This document shows positions 43,940-52,596 of a DNA stretch of 64,000 bases, in pieces; position 1 is the stretch's first letter; every line of letters starts with the position of its first letter. The position numbers and the translations under genes are program-made. This DNA is from Propionivibrio sp. (lineage in GTDB: Bacteria; Pseudomonadota; Gammaproteobacteria; Burkholderiales; Rhodocyclaceae), in assembly GCA_041441355.1 (NCBI GenBank), contig JASDTF010000016.1:56899-120898 (forward strand), given 5' to 3'. The notes under the pieces are model-generated. The model saw only the letters and a list, made by a program, of their open reading frames with translations, was not told the DNA's origin and did no database searches.

Positions 43940-44016
43940 GCGCCCGTAGCTCAGTTGGATAGAGTACTGCCCTCCGAAGGCAGGGGTCGGACGTTCGAAT
44001 CGTCTCGGGCGCGCCA
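43940..44016 (+). tRNA. tRNA-Arg(CCG)
   Basis: 77 nt; acceptor GCGCCCG/CGGGCGC; anticodon stem CTGCC/GGCAG with loop CTCCGAA; TTCGAAT T-loop; encoded CCA. Confidence 0.97.
43995..44016 (+). repeat. attL core, 22-bp direct repeat (tRNA 3' end)
   Basis: tcgaatcgtctcgggcgcgcca, identical to 50122-50143. Confidence 0.93.
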
Positions 44017-44120
44017 AAGACTGTCTAAGGGGCTGATTCCGCAAGGGTTAGCCCTTTTTCATGCACTTACAGATGCCGTGCTGCTACACAGAGCTGTTAC
44101 ACAGCCGATAGAATCTTGGC

Positions 44121-45701
44121 ATGGACAAGGGCATGAAAGATCAAACGGGCCTCGTAAGGCGAGGTTCCATCTACTACTACCGGCAGCGCATTCCCACTGA
44201 CTTATTGCCCCACTTCGACAAAGCAGAAGTCTGGCGTTCTCTACGTACGTCGAACAAGACGGAAGCCAAGCAGCGTGCCAAGCTAGAGGCGCTGAAGTGG
44301 GAACAGGAATTCCACCAGAAGAGAAGTCTGCGGGAAACCTCCGAGGTTACGCAGATAAGCGCAGACGAGCTTGAGCGCCTTACCGCAATCTACTATGCGG
44401 AGCAGCTTGAGGGCGACGAGTACATTCGAGCTACTGGACGCCTCTCAGGCGGAGTGTTCGAGTCGTACGGGAAGGCCCTGGAGAAGTTCGACAACGAAGA
44501 CGGACGGCGGGTTGCTCAAGGAGTGACGGGCGAGCGGGACCAGGAAATGGACGCTTTCCTACAAGGCTACGGTATCCGGTTAGCGTCGGCGCCAGAACAA
44601 TACATGCTTACGGCGTATGCCTTTGCGAAGGTTCGGAAGCGTGTAGGGGAGGCTGTGCTAGCTCGGCAAAGAGGTCAGGTGGTTGATACGCCTATTCCTC
44701 CTGCATTTGCACTGCGTGTCGTTTCTGGCAGCAATGAAGGTGACAGCCTTGAAGCGTTGCTGAACTATTGGAAAACGCAGGGAGAGAAGGCACACCGGAC
44801 GCTGCTGGAAGCGAGTACCGCTGTACGGCTTTTCTCGGAATCGTTGCAAGGCATCCCTGCGTCCAGAATCACCAAAGTTCATGTGGTCGCCTTCAAGGAC
44901 AAACTGCTGGCCGAGGGCAAGGCGCCTGCGACCGTGTTAAAGCAAGTCGGGCTTCTCAAGGCGATATTCGAGACAGCCGCAGCGAACGGGAAGCTGTCCG
45001 GCAATCCGGCTCAGGGAGTGAAGGTTCCTCGCCCAAAGATTGAGCAGAAAAAGCGTGTCTCGTTCTCTGCGACAGACCTTTCCGCAATCTTCAATTCTCC
45101 GGTATTCACTCAAGGGGCAAGGCCGCTCGGAGGACGCGGAGAGGCCGCCTACTGGATTCCTCTGCTCGGCCTCTGGTCGGGTGCCCGCCTTGAGGAAATC
45201 GGGCAGTTACTCACAACAAATGTGGAGGAAGAGGACGGTATTCATTTTCTGCGCATTACCCATGACGCAGAAGCTGGGCAGACCGTGAAGACAGCAACAT
45301 CACGGCGTCGCGTTCCGCTCCATCCTGAGCTGATTCGTTTGGGCTTCTTGGACTACGTTCGCAACTTGGAGAGAGAAGGGACCGCGCGCCTATTCCCGTT
45401 GTTGGTCTCGGGGGCTTCCCGCCAATTGACGGCAAGCTGGTCTCAGTGGTGGGGGCGCTATCTCCGTAAGGAGGTCAAAATCACCGACAGCCGCAAGGTG
45501 TTCCACTCTTTCCGTCACGGCTTCAAAGATGCCTGCCGAGATAGTGACATTCCGAAAGAGTTGAACGACCGCCTGACAGGGCACGGCGGCGGCGGCGTTG
45601 GAGATAGTTATGGTGCCGATGATTACCCGCTCCGTCCGTTGGCTGATGCAATGAACAAGTTGCGGTATCGCGGTCTGGATTTGGCCCACCTTGCGATGTA
45701 G
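44121..45701 (+). CDS. Tyrosine integrase with DUF6538-like N-terminus
   Basis: RRGSIYYYRQRIP; catalytic R (GARLEEI), K, HSFRH, GH, Y; start may be 44133. Confidence 0.92.
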   Translation: MDKGMKDQTGLVRRGSIYYYRQRIPTDLLPHFDKAEVWRSLRTSNKTEAKQRAKLEALKWEQEFHQKRSLRETSEVTQISADELERLTAIYYAEQLEGDEYIRATGRLSGGVFESYGKALEKFDNEDGRRVAQGVTGERDQEMDAFLQGYGIRLASAPEQYMLTAYAFAKVRKRVGEAVLARQRGQVVDTPIPPAFALRVVSGSNEGDSLEALLNYWKTQGEKAHRTLLEASTAVRLFSESLQGIPASRITKVHVVAFKDKLLAEGKAPATVLKQVGLLKAIFETAAANGKLSGNPAQGVKVPRPKIEQKKRVSFSATDLSAIFNSPVFTQGARPLGGRGEAAYWIPLLGLWSGARLEEIGQLLTTNVEEEDGIHFLRITHDAEAGQTVKTATSRRRVPLHPELIRLGFLDYVRNLEREGTARLFPLLVSGASRQLTASWSQWWGRYLRKEVKITDSRKVFHSFRHGFKDACRDSDIPKELNDRLTGHGGGGVGDSYGADDYPLRPLADAMNKLRYRGLDLAHLAM

Positions 45702-45883
45702 GAGGCGGCGGGGCGTACGTGCCAGCATGTTGTGCGTAAAAACAGGGGATCACCGTTGAACGTGGAATCCCCTGCCAGAAGCTTCGGGGTATGAAATTTC
45801 ACCCCCGTAGAAGTGCAGACTGAAGAGGTCTGACGACCCCTCCAGTTCTCTTTAGATGCCCGTGCTGGGGCGGATGTGGAGGT

Positions 45884-46717
45884 TCAGAACTCCGGTTCCT
45901 CTTCTTCTAGGCCAAGGTCGGAGACATCGACCACGCCATGCCAGTACTCCGCAAAGAAGCTCGGCAGGCTCCTGTCGTAATGCTCCAGTGCTCGTGCCAG
46001 AACTTCGGGCATGCCGTGTCGTTGGAAGCGATGCCCTAGGAGCTGCATGAGTTTGCCTGCAAGCTGCTTCGCTTCCTCCTCCATCGCGGCATCCCAATCC
46101 TTGTTCTCGTCCATTTCCTTGCCGTCTGCTTCGCTCCTTGCTCGCGGCCAAGAAATTTCCGTCAGGTCCCGTTCAGGCTCCTTCTGGAGCAGCGTCCGTT
46201 TGGTGGCTCGCATGGTAAAGACTTGCCGCTCCGAGACGGTCGATGCAAGGGCGATGGCCTTGGCGCTGGCCTCTCCTTTTGTAGTCAAGACGACCAACTC
46301 CCATGCCGCTTGTGCTTGCTCGCGCTTCGTCATTTGGAGTTTTGTAGGTGCGTTGGACTGGACCGACCTGAGCATGGCGCTGACGACCGTGCCGCGATGG
46401 ACCTGAACCGGCACAGGGTCCTTCTTGGGCCATCTGCCGACTTCGTAAGCATCCAGACGGTGGTGACCGTCGATGCAATACCAGCCATCCCCGCCCCACC
46501 AGACGAGCAGCGCTTCTAGCGCCTGCCCATCTTTGACCTTCCGTGCCATCTCGTGAATGTGCGTCCGGCTCGCATATTCCGCTGGTCGTCGGAATTGGTA
46601 CAACTCCGGGATCCGCTTGATGTCGCCGAGAAGGAGGCTCTTCGGGTCCTCGGGAGGGGGCTGCGTACCACTCTTGACCTTCCGTTCAAGCGCCTGTCGT
46701 GCTTCTGGTCTGCTCAT
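45884..46717 (-). CDS. ParB/Srx-like N-terminal domain protein
   Basis: LEALLVWW..WYCIDGHHRLDAY motif; acidic tail; GGAGA RBS. Confidence 0.7.
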   Translation of the reverse strand: MSRPEARQALERKVKSGTQPPPEDPKSLLLGDIKRIPELYQFRRPAEYASRTHIHEMARKVKDGQALEALLVWWGGDGWYCIDGHHRLDAYEVGRWPKKDPVPVQVHRGTVVSAMLRSVQSNAPTKLQMTKREQAQAAWELVVLTTKGEASAKAIALASTVSERQVFTMRATKRTLLQKEPERDLTEISWPRARSEADGKEMDENKDWDAAMEEEAKQLAGKLMQLLGHRFQRHGMPEVLARALEHYDRSLPSFFAEYWHGVVDVSDLGLEEEEPEF

Positions 46718-46904
46718 TGCGTTCTCCACGTTCTACATTCATTCGTTGATGCTCGGCCAGGATGATGGCAAGCGTTTGGTTGTTGTTCAGCCGGACCCCC
46801 TGTGCCCTTTCGCGGGAACGTTGGAAGTCCTTGAGGTAATCGAAGGATGCGACCGAGAAAGCCACTTGCCGGAAGACAAGTGCTGCGGGCTTGTGCGCCG
46901 TCAT
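46686..46904 (-). CDS. 72-aa hypothetical protein, possible ribbon-helix-helix
   Basis: beta (FRQVAFS)-helix-helix pattern; overlaps the ParB-like start. Confidence 0.55.
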   Translation of the reverse strand: MTAHKPAALVFRQVAFSVASFDYLKDFQRSRERAQGVRLNNNQTLAIILAEHQRMNVERGERNEQTRSTTGA

Positions 46905-46908
46905 GGGC

Positions 46909-47235
46909 TTACTCTTCCCAGGGCGCTGCGCTGGCGTTGGGGCCGGAGGTTGGCGACTCCCCGCGAACGGTCTTGGGTATTGCCTCCTGCTCGTCAAAGA
47001 GGGCGAGGAATTCAGCGTTCGGCTTAGTCTTCTTGTTGAGCGTGTTGCGGGCATAGGCGAACTCCCAGGCAATCGGCTCATACGTACCGTTCTTTACGGC
47101 ATGGTGGTAGCGTCCAAGGGCTTTCTTCAAAGCCTGACTCGGCGCACCACCAGGGGACAGCGCCCATGAATTGAGGGCGTCGATAATCTCCTTCAGGTCA
47201 CCCGAACGGGTTGCGAGGTTGGTTGCGTACTTCAC
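46909..47235 (-). CDS. 108-aa hypothetical protein
   Basis: GTG start with GGAGA RBS; ends 4 nt before the next ORF in an apparent operon. Confidence 0.6.
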   Translation of the reverse strand: MKYATNLATRSGDLKEIIDALNSWALSPGGAPSQALKKALGRYHHAVKNGTYEPIAWEFAYARNTLNKKTKPNAEFLALFDEQEAIPKTVRGESPTSGPNASAAPWEE

Positions 47236-47374
47236 GTCTGTTTCTCCATTGGTTGGGTTAGGGGGCGCACAAAGATCACGCTCCAGTCGGAAGGAGCGTT
47301 TTCTCTATGCGATAGCTAGGTTTTATCGCCAAAACCCGCCTCAAACCCTTGCCAATCAAGGCTTTCAGAGCGAC

Positions 47375-47397
47375 AAAAAGGGCCGCCGAAGCGACCC
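47375..47397 (-). terminator. Intrinsic terminator of the 336-aa cargo gene
   Basis: Minus strand gggtcgc-ttcg-gcggccc-ttttt. Confidence 0.75.
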
Positions 47398-47454
47398 GCG
47401 TTTGATCTGCAGAAGCAGCTTCAAATCCTTCGCAGCATTGTCATCCAAACATTT

Positions 47455-48462
47455 CTACGAAAAATTAGAGGTACTGTGCTCTGCTGCAGGAGTCCAGATT
47501 GCTCCCTCTGGAATCGAATCCAAAATCCCTGTTTCTTCGTTCAGGCGCTCAAAGAACAATGTGGTTTGATGCTCTCTTTTCCTTCCATGAAGAACACTCA
47601 CAGCGAGTTGTGTATCAGGATTGAAGAACCCTACCGAGGCGTTTTTGGAGATAAATAAGATTGCTCGCTCCGTGGCGTGCTGTTGAGCATAAACCTCCTC
47701 TGCGTAGTCAAGCTCTCTCCGAATGGTGATGGCTCGTTCGACTGCCAGAACAGATGAACCATCCATCGAAATGCCAAATCCTGGGGTCAAAAACATCTTC
47801 CCAGCGAGCGTGATAGGCACAGACACTCCACTTCTGCGTAGAGCAATGTAATCCGCAGCCGAATGCTGTTTCCCAGGCAGAATCCCTTTGAGTTCAAACC
47901 TGTCGATGGTTTCAGGCCAATTGCGATAGAGCGTCTCAAGAAGTTCGATCTTGCCCCATAGATCCCCGAATCCCCTCCCGTGCGGGACCACATCGATTAG
48001 GTAAGCTGCGTCATCAGTAAGGCGCGCTATCAAGACTCGACGGGAGCGCATAACCCGCCCACCTTTGCCTTCCAAGTCTGCGCCAAGATGAAAATGCAGG
48101 AGACCCCAGTCAGCAAAGAAGATGTCGTGGTTCGCCCACTTTCGTTTTCTATCGTTGTTACTACGCCTTCGAATTGAGGCTGTCGTATCGCCAAGAAAAG
48201 ACAGAAGAGAACCGCCCCTCGCCATTGCGGAACAGAGCTGCCGAATGCCGCTTAGTTCATAAGGCGACAGAATGCGCTCATGCGTAAGGACGTCAGAGAA
48301 ATAAATGCGCCTGGTTCTTCTGGACGGAATCCTACCAAGCCACTCAATGACATCAATGAGCCGCAACTCTGGTTTTGGGGGTAGGGGCGATTGCGTTTTC
48401 TCATAGACATCTGCAAGGAGAATCGGCAAGTCTCTACACCAAATCAGAGCATCATCCTTCAT
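47455..48462 (-). CDS. Hypothetical cargo protein, 335 aa, with DWGLLHFHLG motif (possibly YafO/RelE-like RNase)
   Basis: Low-GC long ORF with RBS and its own terminator; HFHL...SRRVLIAR...AYLIDVVPHG pattern. Confidence 0.7.
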   Translation of the reverse strand: MKDDALIWCRDLPILLADVYEKTQSPLPPKPELRLIDVIEWLGRIPSRRTRRIYFSDVLTHERILSPYELSGIRQLCSAMARGGSLLSFLGDTTASIRRRSNNDRKRKWANHDIFFADWGLLHFHLGADLEGKGGRVMRSRRVLIARLTDDAAYLIDVVPHGRGFGDLWGKIELLETLYRNWPETIDRFELKGILPGKQHSAADYIALRRSGVSVPITLAGKMFLTPGFGISMDGSSVLAVERAITIRRELDYAEEVYAQQHATERAILFISKNASVGFFNPDTQLAVSVLHGRKREHQTTLFFERLNEETGILDSIPEGAIWTPAAEHSTSNFS

Positions 48463-48511
48463 CTCAGAGCGCTCCTCAGAAGGGGGCAAAGTCAAGGAAA
48501 ATGCCGTCAAG

Positions 48512-48540
48512 TTGTCGTGAACAGGATTGTCGAATACTAT
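48512..48540 (+). promoter_or_regulatory. Sigma70 promoter of the cargo membrane gene
   Basis: TTGTCG-17-TACTAT, 29 nt before ATG 48570. Confidence 0.65.
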
Positions 48541-48569
48541 GCTTTCAGAATGTGACTGTAGAGGCTTCT

Positions 48570-48974
48570 ATGGAAACAATCCTGGCCAACCTTGCAGACC
48601 CTTCGTGGTGGTTTAGTAGCTTTTTCCCCGCTGTGGTCATCATTTTGCTCCCACGGTTATTTAGGCCGCTGTGGGCGCGCACAAAAATATTCCTAAGAAC
48701 TCGCCGCGCAAAAGAACTCAGCAAAATTAAAAGACTCCGCTGGGACGATATGCAAATTACTTACGAGATGCAGAAGGCTGCCGCCTTGCTTGTCATCTTT
48801 ATTCTGTCCATCGTCCTGGCCCTTGTGTCGCTCCTCTTAAGCCCCGTCACCAAATCGACGCTGCATGTCATTATCGTAAGCATTCCGATTCTGTGGTCAG
48901 AACTGGCTTGGTTGTCACGTGACAAGCTCGTGAAGGAAGTGATTCTGTACCGTAAAAAACTGAATCGACCGTAA
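48570..48974 (+). CDS. Hypothetical 134-aa membrane protein (about 3 TM)
   Basis: GAGG RBS; hydrophobic segments separated by a basic linker (RTRRAKELSKIKRLR); low GC. Confidence 0.72.
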   Translation: METILANLADPSWWFSSFFPAVVIILLPRLFRPLWARTKIFLRTRRAKELSKIKRLRWDDMQITYEMQKAAALLVIFILSIVLALVSLLLSPVTKSTLHVIIVSIPILWSELAWLSRDKLVKEVILYRKKLNRP

Positions 48975-48984
48975 AAACAGGGAA

Positions 48985-49551
48985 TCAGGCAGACGCCTTC
49001 AGATACTGATACAGGGTCTCCCGGCTGATACCGTACTCCTTGGCGAGGGCCGCCTTGTTGCTCTTGGGCTCCCCTGCCTTGGCCTTCAGTTCCTCCACCT
49101 GGGCCGCTGTAAGGGCCTTCTTGCGTCCCTTATAGACGCCCTTGGCCTTGGCGATGGCGATGCCCTCCCGCTGCCGCTCACGGATCAAGGACCGCTCAAA
49201 CTCAGCCACCGCTCCCAGCATCGTCAGTAGCAGGTGCGACATGGGCGAGTCATCCCCGGTGAAGGTCAACCCTTCCTTGTGGAAGCGAACCACGACGCCC
49301 CTTCCGGTCAGCCCCTTGACGATGCCCCGGAGGTCATCAACGTTACGGGCGAGACGGTCCATCGAATGAACGTGGAAGGTGTCCCCCTCCCGGAGGTAGT
49401 CCAAGGCGGTCTGTAGTTCGGGGCGGGCGACATCCTTCCCGCTGGCCTTGTCGGTGAAGGTCTTATCGAGAGGGACGCCTTCAAGCTGCCTGTCGGTGTT
49501 CTGGTCCAGTGTCGAGACACGGACGTAGCCAATGTGCTTGCCTTTGCTCAT
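48985..49551 (-). CDS. tnpR: Serine recombinase/resolvase, Tn21/Tn501 TnpR-like
   Basis: GYVRVSTLDQN, DKASGKD, HSMDRLARN, AEFERSLIRERQREGI, C-terminal HTH. Confidence 0.93.
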   Translation of the reverse strand: MSKGKHIGYVRVSTLDQNTDRQLEGVPLDKTFTDKASGKDVARPELQTALDYLREGDTFHVHSMDRLARNVDDLRGIVKGLTGRGVVVRFHKEGLTFTGDDSPMSHLLLTMLGAVAEFERSLIRERQREGIAIAKAKGVYKGRKKALTAAQVEELKAKAGEPKSNKAALAKEYGISRETLYQYLKASA

Positions 49552-49572
49552 GGAGGTCTTCCCTGGTTGAAG

Positions 49573-49692
49573 TGTCAGGAAAGACTCTAAGACGTACAAT
49601 GGCTTGTGTCAAGAAAATCCAAAATGGACCCTATCCCTACGCACCTGAAGGGGCCTGGCTGACGTCAGGCTGGCCTACACCCCACACTGACG
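49573..49692 (-). promoter_or_regulatory. Three-subsite res site (Tn21-like)
   Basis: Site I CGTCAG-N18-CTGACG (49663-49692); minus-strand GGATAGGGTCCATTTTGGATTTTCTTGACA and GTCTTAGAGTCTTTCCTGACA resemble Tn21 sites II/III as recalled. Confidence 0.8.
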
Positions 49693-50121
49693 ACGGCACC
49701 AGGACACAAGGAAGAAGGCTGTTTGTGGTCGTGACCCGTGATGCCTCGGGCGTTCCACTCAGCTTAAGAAGGGGCCCGGCCCGTAAGGTGATGGGCACAA
49801 GATGGGAGGTGACTTACCCCATACGGGGGGAGTTCTCAGGAGCGAGAATATCGTATGCCCTCTCGGATTTTCCCAGCAAAACATTCTGCCCTTGCTTGTC
49901 GGTTGAGGACACGTTTGGAGGGCGTAACGCTCTGGGGCGTTCGGCTGGCGAGAGCAGAAGAGCCTCCGATAGAACTGTAGTCGAGGTATTTTTCGCTTCT
50001 AGGTGATTATTGTGAGAGAATGCGCACCCTGCGGTGCAGGATAGCACCACAAACCTGTTACACAGCTGTTTTGACTGGCCGTCGTAAGTGCTTCAAAGAC
50101 AAGAGATTTATCTCTGGTTCC

Positions 50122-50143
50122 TCGAATCGTCTCGGGCGCGCCA
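50122..50143 (+). repeat. attR core, 22-bp direct repeat
   Basis: tcgaatcgtctcgggcgcgcca, identical to 43995-44016. Confidence 0.93.
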
Positions 50144-50192: not shown

Positions 50193-50269
50193 GCGCCCGT
50201 AGCTCAGTTGGATAGAGTACTTGGCTACGAACCAAGGGGTCGGGCGTTCGAATCGCTCCGGGCGCGCCA
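50193..50269 (+). tRNA. tRNA-Arg(ACG)
   Basis: 77 nt; anticodon stem CTTGG/CCAAG with loop CTACGAA; encoded CCA. Confidence 0.97.
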
Positions 50270-50352: not shown

Positions 50353-52026
50353 CTAATGCGCAATCTGGAACCGTCCGACGTCATCTCGCAAGCGGATTGC
50401 CAGGTGATCGAGTTGAGTGGCGGTGTCGGCCACCGTTTCCATGGAGTGGTTGTTGCCGTCGATCATCTGCGCGATGGTTTCGACGCGCCCTGCAATGTCC
50501 TGGCTGGCGACGGCTTGCTCTCTGAGTGCGCGGGAGACATCGTCCACGATCGCGACCACCTGCGTTGCGCCTCCGAGGATGGCCTCGATGGAGGCGCCAG
50601 TTTTTTCTGCAATGGCCATGCCTGCTTTCACTTGCTCGACCGACAAGGTCATTTGCGAAGCCATGGCTTGAGCGCCTTGCTGCATGGATGTAATCATGGT
50701 GGCGATCTCTTGGGCCGAGGTGCCGGTTTTCTCCGCTAGTTTTCGAACTTCATCGGCAACCACCGCAAAGCCGCGGCCTTGTTCTCCGGCGCGGGCGGCT
50801 TCAATGGCCGCATTTAGGGCCAGCAGATTGGTCTGGTCGGCCACTTCCTTGATCACGGCAGTGACATTGGAGACTTGGTCCGAAGCCTTTTGAAGCGCCT
50901 CGGCCGATTGTGCAGCGGTTTCTATGGATCGGGCGATGAGGCCGATGTCATGGACCATGGCGTGGATCTGTTCAGAGCCTTTTTGGGCTGCTTGGCCCGA
51001 TTCGCTCGAAATGCGTTGCGCTTCGGCGGACAAGTCCGAGACGTGCGTGATGCTCGTCGACATTTCTTCCAGTGCTGCTGCCATCGAGGCGGTGGACTCC
51101 GACTGTTCTTCGGAGCCTTTGAGAACCTGGGCAGAAATCGCGTTGAGCCCGTTGGATGCGTTTCCAAGATCCACGGACTGTGCTTGAAGGTCGCGCAGCA
51201 TTCTGGAAAGTTCGGAGACCATCGTCACCGTTGCACGCTGCAGGCGTGCCAGTTCATCCTTGCGGGATGTGTCGACTTGGATGCGCACGGTGAGATCGCC
51301 AGCAGAAACTTTTTCCATGGTGCTGACCGTTTCATTCAAAGGAGAGACGATCGATTTTCCGAGGGCGAGACCGAAAAGCACCAAGGAGACGACAGCAGCA
51401 AAGAAAACCGAAATGGCTGCCGTCTGCGCAAAACTGGCGGCATTGAGCGCGAAATCCACACTCTTTTTTGCTTCCCTTGTATTTAATTCGATGATGGCTT
51501 GAAGGCTTTCGCCAAGTTCGCGAGTGATTGCGCGACGTGTTTCCACCATTTTTTGGTGCTCATTGGCCGCATTGCGCAAGGACTCGTCGCTTAGATTGTC
51601 GATCGTGGATTTGTGGATGGTGAGTACTTTTTTCTCCAGTTCAAACCAGTTGTTCCATGTCCCGTGAAATTTATTCCAAGCGGCCTGTTCTTCTGCATCC
51701 GCAGGCAAGGCTTGGTATTGTTTGATCGCGTTTTCCGCGCGTTTGATCGCATCCAGCTTGCGGGTGTAGGCAATTTCGATCTCTGCCTTTTTCTTTTCCA
51801 AGGAAGGGAGGCGATCCGCAGCGGTAAAGGTGTAGAGGTTGCGAGACAGGTCAGTGATGGCTTCTTTGATGACCAGAAGGTAATTGACCGATGGCATCCG
51901 ATTGTGCCCGATGTCGGCAATCGCGGCGTTATTCTTGGCGAGGCCAATGACGCCGACCCCACCCACAATCAGAATTGCCAAGCAACTGACAGCAATCAGA
52001 AGAAGTAATTTTTTTTGAATTGTCAT
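50353..52026 (-). CDS. Methyl-accepting chemotaxis protein (4HB sensor-HAMP-MCP)
   Basis: Two TM segments; [35 protein letters not shown]. Confidence 0.95.
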
Positions 52027-52596
52027 TGCTGCTCCCGCGGCGGTTTGATTGATACGGATTCCTGCGTGCACGACTTTGATTCAGGGCTTGAAAAACAGTC
52101 GATGGAACGTTCTTTCAGATTGATCTGAGACGACTCCCGGGTTACAAACTGTCCAAAACAATCGAGGGGAGGTGATGGCGCGCAGGTCGCCACGGAAAGC
52201 ATGACGGCCGGCACGGGCCAGGCTTTGCGGCGCCTTTTCTGATGCCGCGTCCTCCGTAACCAAATCTAAGTCCACAATTTTGGTGTGGGCAATAATTGTT
52301 TTACGGTTACCAAGCCCTTGGAACGACAAATGTCTTTCAGCCAACGACGGGGCAATTTTCCGGAGCCAAGCGCTTGTGTTTCGACAAGGGTCCGGGGGCA
52401 CGAAGGCGCCCGCTCCGGGCTATGACCTTCGTTTGATTTGTGAATGGGTTTTTTTGTGGTAAAAACGCAGCGCCCAGTAGGGGCATGCTGCGTTTTCGTG
52501 CCCGGCGACCGTTGTCGCGGGGCGCCTGATCCCGGCATCCGGACTGCATTTCAGTACTCCCGCAGCTTCTCCCGCCGCACTTTCGAGCCGTTGTTC

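What the first reader, a model, noticed from the sequence alone, without database searches (positions are those of the whole stretch)
47375..48974. Candidate novel anti-phage or toxin module: YafO-like RNase paired with a 3-TM protein
Seen: two low-GC divergent genes in the island cargo slot, separated by 107 bp, with a clean sigma70 promoter for the membrane gene and a dedicated terminator for the other. The 335-aa protein has D..FADWGLLHFHLG...RSRRVLIAR...AYLIDVVPHG. Known (recalled): YafO-family mRNA interferases show a similar HxHL...S..LVY...YLL...P.AH order; small multi-TM proteins are common abortive-infection effectors; tRNA-targeting islands are defence hotspots. Inference: a stand-alone RNase with extra N- and C-terminal regulatory regions plus a membrane partner, with no cognate antitoxin visible. 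I do not recognise it as a named system.
Basis: partly seen in the sequence, partly recalled or inferred. Interest (0 to 1): 0.72.

Follow-up and report, generated by a model that had tools for sequence, protein, structure and literature searches.

The report
Divergent PD-T4-7 phage-defence gene
The 335-residue protein is a distant relative of PD-T4-7, an already named single-gene abortive-infection phage defence of E. coli, carried here on a 6.1-kb island in a tRNA-Arg gene. The small membrane gene beside it is an orphan rather than a conserved partner, so this is an ordinary new member of a known family.

Summary
Both genes exist as described. A 335-aa ORF lies at 47455-48462 (-) and a 134-aa hydrophobic ORF at 48570-48974 (+), 107 bp apart, at about 50% GC against 70% in the flanks. 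The minus-strand terminator is real. The "clean" sigma-70 promoter is only an 8/12 match.

PADLOC's PD-T4-7 model hits the 335-aa protein at E=7e-37. PD-T4-7 is a validated single-gene abortive-infection system (Vassallo 2022) that its authors already called "RelE toxin-like", with YafO_toxin as the top, weak HHpred hit.

The window protein is a distant member: 24% identity to the E. coli prototype, with a shared core and clade-specific ends. The family is large, about 3,050 clusters at 50% identity. It has invariant D113, W119, H123, H125, L126 and H161, and near-invariant R139.

[quoted passage not shown] Its best PDB matches are YafQ, HigB, YoeB and Cami1, none of them significant.

The membrane ORF has no homologue anywhere. 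It is absent from 127 related loci, and no neighbour recurs next to family members.

Close homologues sit beside Gabija-like and type III restriction-modification genes or in prophages.

Verdict: a new member of a known kind, and the pairing is unsupported.

The parts
47455..48462 (-). Gene for the 335-aa PD-T4-7-family protein, a predicted single-polypeptide abortive-infection defence. Predicted layout: N-terminal helical region 1-48; RelE/BECR-like core about 49-165 (beta1 52-55, helices 57-62 and 67-81, an insertion 82-120, beta2 121-125 carrying H123 and H125, beta3 142-148, beta4 152-160, then H161); helical and alpha/beta C-terminal regions 166-330.
   Evidence: PADLOC PDLC04066 E=7.4e-37 and PDLC04065 E=2.7e-20. 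24% identity and E=3e-19 to the E. coli prototype. Family invariants. AF2 model with pLDDT 92 and pTM 0.90. Foldseek results.
47380..47397 (-). Intrinsic-terminator-like hairpin (GGGTCGC-TTCG-GCGGCCC followed by TTTTT) just downstream of the 335-aa gene.
   Evidence: Terminator scan and the sequence itself.
48463..48569 (.). 107-bp divergent intergenic region. It holds a weak plus-strand promoter-like site, TTGTCG (48512-48517), 17 nt, TACTAT (48535-48540). I saw no convincing minus-strand promoter.
   Evidence: Sequence. The promoter scan found nothing here at its 9/12 threshold.
48570..48974 (+). Orphan 134-aa hydrophobic ORF with one strong and two marginal TM-like segments. It is probably a real gene, but it is not a conserved partner of the defence gene.
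   Evidence: No homologue among 5.8 billion proteins except itself, none in 61 related genomes, and none in 127 loci that carry PD-T4-7-family genes.
43940..44016 (+). tRNA-Arg(CCG), the integration target. Its last 22 nt (43995-44016) form attL.
   Evidence: ARAGORN, Rfam and the direct repeat.
44121..45701 (+). Island integrase: a tyrosine recombinase with an N-terminal DUF6538 domain.
   Evidence: Pfam DUF6538 E=1e-20, plus weaker hits to integrase N-terminal and SAM-like domains.
45884..46729 (-). ParB-like 281-aa island gene of unknown role.
   Evidence: PHROG 1033, ParB-like partition protein, E=5.5e-7. Found only in the own genome among 400 sampled genomes of the class.
48985..49599 (-). 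Serine recombinase (resolvase/invertase), convergent with the membrane ORF.
   Evidence: Pfam Resolvase E=6.6e-35 and HTH_7 E=6.8e-8.
50122..50143 (+). attR, an exact 22-bp copy of the tRNA-Arg(CCG) 3' end. It closes a 6.1-kb island (44017-50143) that lies 49 bp upstream of tRNA-Arg(ACG) at 50193-50269.
   Evidence: The empty site, with the two tRNA-Arg genes adjacent, is present in relatives G014:C22 and G010:C29.

Best explanation
The 335-aa gene encodes a divergent member of the PD-T4-7 family. PD-T4-7 is a self-contained, single-polypeptide abortive-infection phage-defence protein.

Shown: it belongs to the family by HMM and pairwise similarity. It keeps every family-invariant residue: G83, D113, W119, H123, H125, L126, H161, and the near-invariant R139. 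It is horizontally acquired cargo of a 6.1-kb integrase-borne islet in tRNA-Arg(CCG). Family members have no conserved neighbour gene.

Inferred mechanism: residues about 49-165 form a RelE/YafQ/YafO-type (BECR) endoribonuclease fold. The His-x-His on beta2, the Arg before beta3 and the His after beta4 would be the catalytic set. The N-terminal helical region and the C-terminal alpha/beta regions would keep the nuclease silent in cis and sense infection. That would explain why no antitoxin gene is needed. On infection the nuclease would cut mRNA, probably on the ribosome, stop translation and abort the infection.

The adjacent 134-aa membrane ORF is a lineage-specific orphan that happens to occupy the gap between the defence gene and the island's resolvase. 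It is not part of the system.
For: Family membership:
- PADLOC PD-T4-7 models hit at E=7.4e-37 and 2.7e-20.
- The E. coli-type protein (L102, 352 aa) scores 478 bits full-length on the same model and aligns to the window protein at 24% identity over 220 aa, E=3e-19, with D113, W119, H123, H125, R139 and H161 conserved.
- A profile of the family finds 3,052 clusters at 50% identity with E<=1e-3.

Prototype properties (from the literature):
- PD-T4-7 is listed among the systems that gave abortive-infection defence and were 'TA-like' (PMC9519451).
- It was cloned as a 1,650-bp fragment holding only the 1,059-bp gene, annotated 'RelE toxin-like', with YafO_toxin as top HHpred hit at 51% probability over residues 118-164.

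Fold:
- The AF2 model built on 88 sequences has pLDDT 92 and pTM 0.90. Its strand and helix order is 52-55, 57-62, 67-81, 121-125, 142-148, 152-160, 166-181. [quoted passage not shown]
- In Foldseek against PDB the top hit is YafQ 9lew_B (E=0.15, probability 0.85, TM-score 0.55 normalised to the target). More than half of the top 20 hits are YafQ, HigB, YoeB, ParE or Cami1. The first, poorer model gave the same enrichment.
- hhalign against a YafO alignment gives P=0.027 over residues 121-159 versus YafO 62-107, with HxHL, R-T/S and A/C-Y-L in register. One of 40 column shuffles reaches that score.
- hhalign against a YafQ alignment gives P=0.064 over residues 49-88 versus YafQ 1-42 (beta1-alpha1-alpha2). 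None of 40 shuffles reaches it.
- The two comparisons cover complementary halves of the domain in the right order.

No partner:
-.

Defence and mobile-element context of homologues:
- GajB-like helicase and HNH (L001). Between type III mod and res (L009). GajB plus an AriA/PD-T4-4_A-like ATPase (L010). Type III mod (L014). HEC-06/DUF262 in a P2-like prophage in E. coli.
- 36 viral contigs carry a family member.

Island insertion:
-. Only 1 of 61 related genomes carries the gene.
Against: - No structural or profile match to a RelE-superfamily protein reaches significance. The best Foldseek E-value is 0.15. The hhalign P-values are 0.03-0.06. Pfam's YafO HMM hits 1 of 103 family members, at E=0.15.
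- RNase activity has not been shown for any PD-T4-7 protein in the papers I could read. A 2024 preprint only asserts it.
- The window protein matches only positions 46-264 of the 337-position PADLOC profile. Its N-terminal 45 or so residues and C-terminal 70 or so residues are clade-specific, so function could differ from the prototype.
- I saw no clear promoter for the 335-aa gene.
- Nothing here shows that the gene is expressed or protects its host.
- Absence of conservation cannot exclude a local functional link to the membrane ORF.
Confidence: 0.8

Rival explanations
1. This is the first reader's model: a two-gene defence or toxin module. The RNase-like protein and the divergently transcribed 3-TM protein would work together, for example as sensor plus membrane-disrupting effector, or as toxin plus membrane-bound antitoxin.
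For: The two genes are 107 bp apart and divergent, share the lowest GC of the island (0.50 and 0.49), and are both cargo between island backbone genes. One other close homologue (L013, 47% identity) also has a divergent, unrelated 160-aa 2-TM ORF upstream. Membrane-associated BECR toxin systems do exist (ToxM/ToxR, PMC11980606).
Against: The membrane ORF has no homologue in 5.8 billion proteins, in 61 related genomes or in 127 loci carrying family members. Only 2 of 97 dereplicated loci have any divergent ORF with two or more TM segments upstream. No neighbour family recurs in more than 6 of 97 loci. The E. coli prototype protects as a single cloned gene.
Confidence: 0.07
2. The protein is a PD-T4-7-family defence protein, but its conserved Asp/Trp/His/His/Arg/His cluster is not a RelE-type mRNA endonuclease site. 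It could bind a metal or nucleotide, cut DNA or tRNA, or act as a non-catalytic sensing surface, with a different effector activity.
For: All links to RelE, YafO and YafQ are below significance. ParE proteins share the fold without RNase activity (PMC11980606). Weak sheath-like matches (6gkw, 9cba, 9g8s; Phage_sheath_1 in 1 of 103 members; also reported by the discoverers) hint at other functions in the C-terminal half.
Against: The invariant residues sit where RelE-family catalytic residues lie, on beta2, before beta3 and after beta4. That placement of the RelE-family residues is from my own knowledge of YafQ and YoeB, not tested here. They also align with YafO's invariant H64, H66 and T84-S85 and near-invariant Y101. 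RelE-superfamily proteins dominate the structural neighbours in two independent models.
Confidence: 0.2
3. The gene mainly serves the island rather than the host. It would be a fused toxin-antitoxin-like addiction module that stabilises the 6.1-kb element after integration, with phage defence incidental or absent.
For: It lies in a minimal island whose other genes are an integrase, a ParB-like protein and a resolvase. RelE-superfamily toxin-antitoxin modules are classic stabilisers, which is general knowledge. A near-identical island (4 differences in 6.3 kb) turns up in an unrelated metagenome assembly.
Against: A single autoinhibited polypeptide has no labile antitoxin to drive post-segregational killing. 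Family members are mostly found beside defence genes or in prophage accessory-gene ('moron') positions rather than on plasmids. The prototype was isolated by selection for phage resistance.
Confidence: 0.08

Closest known systems
PD-T4-7 (E. coli UMB0103, RRN43039.1; Vassallo et al. 2022, PMC9519451; PADLOC PDLC04066/PDLC04065)
   Same: Homologous core, with 24% identity over 220 aa at E=3e-19 and an HMM E-value of 7e-37. Similar size (335 versus 352 aa). Stand-alone gene with no conserved partner. All family-invariant residues are kept. Carried by a mobile element at a variable cargo site.
   Different: Only profile positions 46-264 of 337 are matched. The N-terminal 45 or so residues and the C-terminal 70 or so residues belong to a small separate clade of about a dozen 50%-identity clusters. 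It sits in a tRNA-Arg integrative islet of a 70%-GC proteobacterium rather than in a P2-like prophage hotspot. Its function has not been tested.
YafO (PF13957), YafQ (PF15738) and other RelE/ParE (BECR-fold) type II toxins
   Same: [quoted passage not shown] The H-x-H-L, R-T/S and A/C-Y-L motifs are co-linear with YafO. YafQ, HigB and YoeB are the best structural neighbours.
   Different: About three times larger, with a roughly 35-residue insertion between alpha2 and beta2 plus extra N- and C-terminal domains. No adjacent antitoxin gene. No significant HMM, profile or Foldseek score. It is not a member of any Pfam BECR family.
Fused or multidomain toxin-based defence proteins, such as CapRelSJ46 (cited), the multidomain BECR toxins surveyed by Gerdes 2025 (PMC11980606), and Cami1, a RelE-family ribosome-dependent RNase (PDB 8phb/8phj)
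   Same: The same concept: a translation-targeting toxin domain kept silent by covalently attached domains and released by an infection signal, giving abortive infection from one gene. Cami1 appears among the structural neighbours.
   Different: The sensor and regulatory domains are unrelated. There is no cyclic-oligoadenylate-binding CARF domain and no pseudo-ZFD. The trigger is unknown. The Gerdes survey does not mention PD-T4-7 (0 occurrences).

Membership tests
PD-T4-7 (PADLOC / Vassallo 2022) | Significant match to the family HMMs | tested here: met
   PDLC04066 E=7.4e-37, 125 bits, residues 57-280 of the 351-aa form versus profile positions 46-264 of 337. PDLC04065 E=2.7e-20. I could not consult PADLOC's own coverage cut-offs.
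PD-T4-7 (PADLOC / Vassallo 2022) | Direct homology to the validated E. coli protein, with the conserved core residues kept | tested here: met
   BLASTP E=3e-19, 24% identity over 220 aa. D113, W119, H123, H125, L126, R139 and H161 are aligned and identical.
PD-T4-7 (PADLOC / Vassallo 2022) | End-to-end co-linearity with the prototype | tested here: not met
   The N-terminal 45 or so residues and the C-terminal 70 or so residues do not align to the prototype or to most family representatives, which match profile positions about 25-265 only. This makes it a divergent clade, not an orthologue.
PD-T4-7 (PADLOC / Vassallo 2022) | Single-gene system with no obligatory partner | tested here: met
   No neighbour family recurs in more than 6 of 97 dereplicated loci. 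The prototype was cloned alone.
PD-T4-7 (PADLOC / Vassallo 2022) | Abortive-infection protection against phage | not testable with these tools
   Known only for the E. coli prototype.
RelE/ParE (BECR) superfamily, YafO family PF13957 | Match to the Pfam family HMM | tested here: not met
   No Pfam family matches the window protein at E<=10. YafO_toxin matches 1 of 103 family members, at E=0.15.
RelE/ParE (BECR) superfamily, YafO family PF13957 | Profile-profile similarity to the toxin core | tested here: inconclusive
   hhalign versus YafO gives P=0.027, with 1 of 40 shuffles reaching the score. hhalign versus YafQ gives P=0.064, with 0 of 40 shuffles reaching it. The two cover complementary halves in the correct order.
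RelE/ParE (BECR) superfamily, YafO family PF13957 | [quoted passage not shown] | tested here: inconclusive
   The topology is present in a pLDDT-92 model. The top Foldseek hits are YafQ, HigB, YoeB and Cami1, but the best E-value is 0.15 with a target-normalised TM-score of about 0.55.
RelE/ParE (BECR) superfamily, YafO family PF13957 | Adjacent cognate antitoxin gene (type II toxin-antitoxin operon) | tested here: not met
   There is no small co-directional ORF next to the gene. Its neighbours are a terminator and a divergent orphan membrane ORF.

The most novel reading that the evidence does not exclude
The small clade to which the window protein belongs has its own N- and C-terminal regions, so it could be a functionally distinct PD-T4-7 variant that senses a different phage cue. 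In this island it may have recruited the orphan membrane protein as a locally evolved accessory, for example to tether or gate the nuclease at the membrane. That would make a two-component variant of a single-gene system.
Probability: 0.06. Interest if true: 0.5.

Novelty: new member of a known kind. Interest (0 to 1): 0.2.

Why it matters
It matters little for discovery. The gene belongs to a defence family that standard tools (PADLOC) already detect, and the proposed gene pair is not real at the family level.

There is modest value for the family itself, because the mechanism of PD-T4-7 is still unpublished as far as the held literature shows. This work adds four things:
- a high-confidence model (pLDDT 92);
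- a short list of invariant residues to mutate (D113, W119, H123, H125, R139, H161);
- evidence that the family is very large (about 3,000 clusters) with clade-specific ends around a RelE-like core;
- recurrent placement beside Gabija-like and type III restriction-modification genes and in prophage accessory-gene positions.

The 6.1-kb tRNA-Arg islet is a compact natural vehicle for a single defence gene.

Tried and rejected
- Pfam, NCBIfam and PHROGs on the 335-aa protein gave nothing useful.
- A sequence-profile search of PDB gave only a chance hit, E=0.5.
- Foldseek against BFVD gave nothing significant.
- A Pfam scan of 103 family members for YafO was essentially negative.
- The genome-contig scan gave only 4 loci, so I used the metagenome and viral scans.
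- I looked for a conserved partner three ways: tblastn and phmmer of the membrane ORF against all loci, a count of divergent small TM ORFs, and all-against-all clustering of neighbours. All were negative.
- A recurring upstream ORF of about 270 aa in a distant subclade turned out to be the phage Mu-F/portal head module, so it is context and not a partner.
- I searched for sister islands with the ParB-like backbone gene in 400 genomes of the class and found none.
- Rfam on the island found only the two tRNAs.
- I considered that orf134 might be a non-coding artefact. I rejected this as the leading view because of its codon-position GC pattern, its ribosome-binding site and the independent gene call. 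It remains unproven.
Full report
**1. What is in the sequence**

The region holds two divergent ORFs.
- The minus-strand ORF runs 47455-48462. Its ATG is preceded by GAGGAG 9 nt upstream. The longest form starts at a TTG at 48510 and would give 351 aa.
- The plus-strand ORF runs 48570-48974 and encodes 134 aa, with AGAGG 7 nt upstream.

The gap between them is exactly 107 bp. GC is 0.48-0.52 here, against about 0.70 in the chromosome on either side.

A G+C-rich hairpin with a T-run lies on the minus strand at 47397-47380, just past the 335-aa gene.

It matches 8 of 12 positions, and the scan did not report it.

The 134-aa product has one strongly hydrophobic segment (70-92) and two marginal ones (13-31, 97-116). 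Its codon-position GC of 0.49/0.38/0.59 looks like coding sequence.

**2. The island**

tRNA-Arg(CCG) lies at 43940-44016. Its last 22 nt, TCGAATCGTCTCGGGCGCGCCA, recur exactly at 50122-50143, which is 49 bp before tRNA-Arg(ACG).

Between the repeats lie:
- a DUF6538-type tyrosine integrase;
- a ParB-like gene;
- a 108-aa ORF;
- the two genes in question;
- a serine resolvase.

In related genomes the two tRNA-Arg genes are adjacent. G014:C22 matches the joined flanks contiguously, and G010:C29 has the two tRNAs about 120 bp apart. The 6.1-kb segment is therefore an insertion.

Only the window's genome among 61 relatives carries the 335-aa gene. A metagenome contig (L138) carries the same island with 4 differences in 6.3 kb. 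There the sequence beyond the tRNA remnant encodes a different tyrosine integrase, so the site is used by more than one element.

**3. Identity of the 335-aa protein**

Pfam, NCBIfam and PHROGs give nothing. PADLOC's two PD-T4-7 models hit at E=7.4e-37 and 2.7e-20.

PD-T4-7 comes from the functional selection of Vassallo et al. 2022 (PMC9519451).
- It is one of the systems that "provided Abi defence" and were "TA-like".
- It was cloned as a 1,650-bp fragment holding only the 1,059-bp gene.
- It was annotated "RelE toxin-like".
- Its top HHpred hit was PF13957 YafO_toxin, at 51% probability over residues 118-164, followed by very weak sheath-type hits.

But the system is named and validated.

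**4. How close it is to the prototype**

I recovered the E. coli-type protein from IMG/VR prophage contigs (L102, 352 aa). It scores 478 bits full-length on PDLC04066. Its gene is present at 99% identity or more in 48 of 5,426 complete E. coli genomes. In the genome I inspected (strain IMT16316) it sits in a P2-like prophage next to a DUF262/HEC-06 gene.

The window protein aligns to it at 24% identity over residues 72-286, E=3e-19.

A full HMMER search with a family profile finds 3,052 clusters at 50% identity (2,419 at E<=1e-10). Most of these match only profile positions about 25-265. About a dozen match end to end, and that small group is the window's clade.

Across 88-103 diverse members the invariant residues are G83, D113, W119, H123, H125, L126 and H161. 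Near-invariant residues are R139, L144, W182, P183, R209 and G230.

**5. Fold and likely chemistry**

With a 16-sequence alignment AF2 gave pLDDT 76. With 88 sequences translated from fetched loci it gave pLDDT 92 and pTM 0.90.

Residues 52-181 run strand, helix, helix, [insertion 82-120], strand (121-125, carrying H123 and H125), strand (142-148), strand (152-160), helix. [quoted passage not shown]

Foldseek against PDB finds no significant match. The best hit is V. cholerae YafQ (E=0.15, probability 0.85, target-normalised TM-score 0.55). The list below it is dominated by HigB, YafQ, YoeB, ParE and the RelE-type RNase Cami1, as it was for the poorer model. A few tail-sheath entries (6gkw, 9cba, 9g8s) echo the discoverers' sheath remark.

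At the sequence level:
- Pfam's YafO model is essentially blind to the family, hitting 1 of 103 members at E=0.15.
- Profile-profile comparison with a 21-sequence YafO alignment aligns residues 121-159 to YafO 62-107, with HxHL, R-T/S and A/C-Y-L in register. P=0.027, and 1 of 40 column shuffles reaches the score.
- Comparison with a 28-sequence YafQ alignment aligns residues 49-88 to YafQ 1-42, which is beta1-alpha1-alpha2. P=0.064, and 0 of 40 shuffles reach it.

Each test is marginal on its own. Together they place the two halves of a RelE-type domain where the model puts them.

I therefore regard a RelE/BECR-like nuclease core as the most likely reading, at roughly 0.6. It is not established, and the protein fails formal membership of any Pfam BECR family. 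No paper I could read shows RNase activity for PD-T4-7. A 2024 preprint merely lists it among RNase systems.

**6. The membrane ORF is not a partner**

- The 134-aa protein finds only itself among 5.8 billion proteins.
- It finds nothing in 61 related genomes.
- tblastn and phmmer find no trace of it in 127 loci that carry family members.
- Of 97 dereplicated loci, 2 have any divergent small ORF with two or more hydrophobic segments upstream. These ORFs are unrelated in sequence.
- Clustering all neighbours within 3 kb gives no family present in more than 6 of 97 loci.
- The one tidy recurring neighbour, in a distant subclade, is the phage portal / Mu-F head module. That shows a prophage accessory-gene ("moron") position, not a partnership.

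**7. Context of relatives**

Eight of ten neighbours of close homologues that I tested hit defence models:
- a GajB-like helicase and an HNH nuclease (L001);
- type III mod and res flanking the gene (L009);
- GajB plus an AriA/PD-T4-4_A-like ATPase (L010);
- type III mod (L014);
- HEC-06 (E. coli).

Thirty-six viral contigs carry a family member.

The "paired" expectation is not.

**8. Verdict**

The novelty and the two-gene architecture are not supported.

This is a divergent new member of the known PD-T4-7 family, riding a minimal tRNA-Arg islet. Interest is low. What remains of value is the residue list, the confident model, and the family's still unknown trigger and mechanism.

Noticed in passing
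window 45735-45752 and 48970-48987: An 18-nt direct repeat, CGTAAAAACAGGG(G/A)ATCA, with 0 matches expected in shuffles. One copy lies just after the integrase stop codon. The other spans the stop codons of the membrane ORF and the resolvase. Together they bracket the 3.2-kb segment from the ParB-like gene to orf134. They could be crossover sites for the adjacent serine recombinase, or a module boundary.
   Followed up: partly
L138:6298-7809 (metagenome contig ERZ15186112 NODE_4436): The same 6.1-kb island, with 4 mismatches in 6.3 kb, is followed beyond the tRNA-Arg remnant by a different tyrosine integrase (398 aa, Pfam Phage_integrase). This suggests tandem elements at this tRNA-Arg(CCG) site in another strain.
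   Followed up: partly
L009:3062-9301 and L014:13-2475: Close homologues of the 335-aa protein (44-48% identity) are embedded in type III restriction-modification loci. In L009 the gene lies between mod and res, together with a small NTase_sub_bind gene. In L014 it lies directly after mod.
   Followed up: partly
L092:2546-5600, L116:2680-5726, also L026, L047 and L048: In a distant subclade the PD-T4-7-like gene lies immediately downstream of the phage portal and Mu-F-like head genes. This is a conserved prophage accessory-gene ('moron') position inside the morphogenesis module.
   Followed up: partly
L013:3273-3755 (-): A 160-aa ORF with two N-terminal TM segments and a coiled-coil tail lies divergently upstream of a 47%-identical homologue. 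It is unrelated in sequence to the window's 134-aa ORF and is the only other close-clade locus with such an arrangement.
   Followed up: no
window 50353-52500: The methyl-accepting-chemotaxis-like gene (572 aa, minus strand) just beyond tRNA-Arg(ACG) is also low in GC, at 0.55 against 0.70 in the chromosome. The low-GC tract therefore extends past attR and may be a second acquired segment.
   Followed up: no
window 49600-50121: About 520 bp between the resolvase start and attR has no convincing ORF and no Rfam match. It may hold recombination-arm sites or promoters of the island.
   Followed up: no
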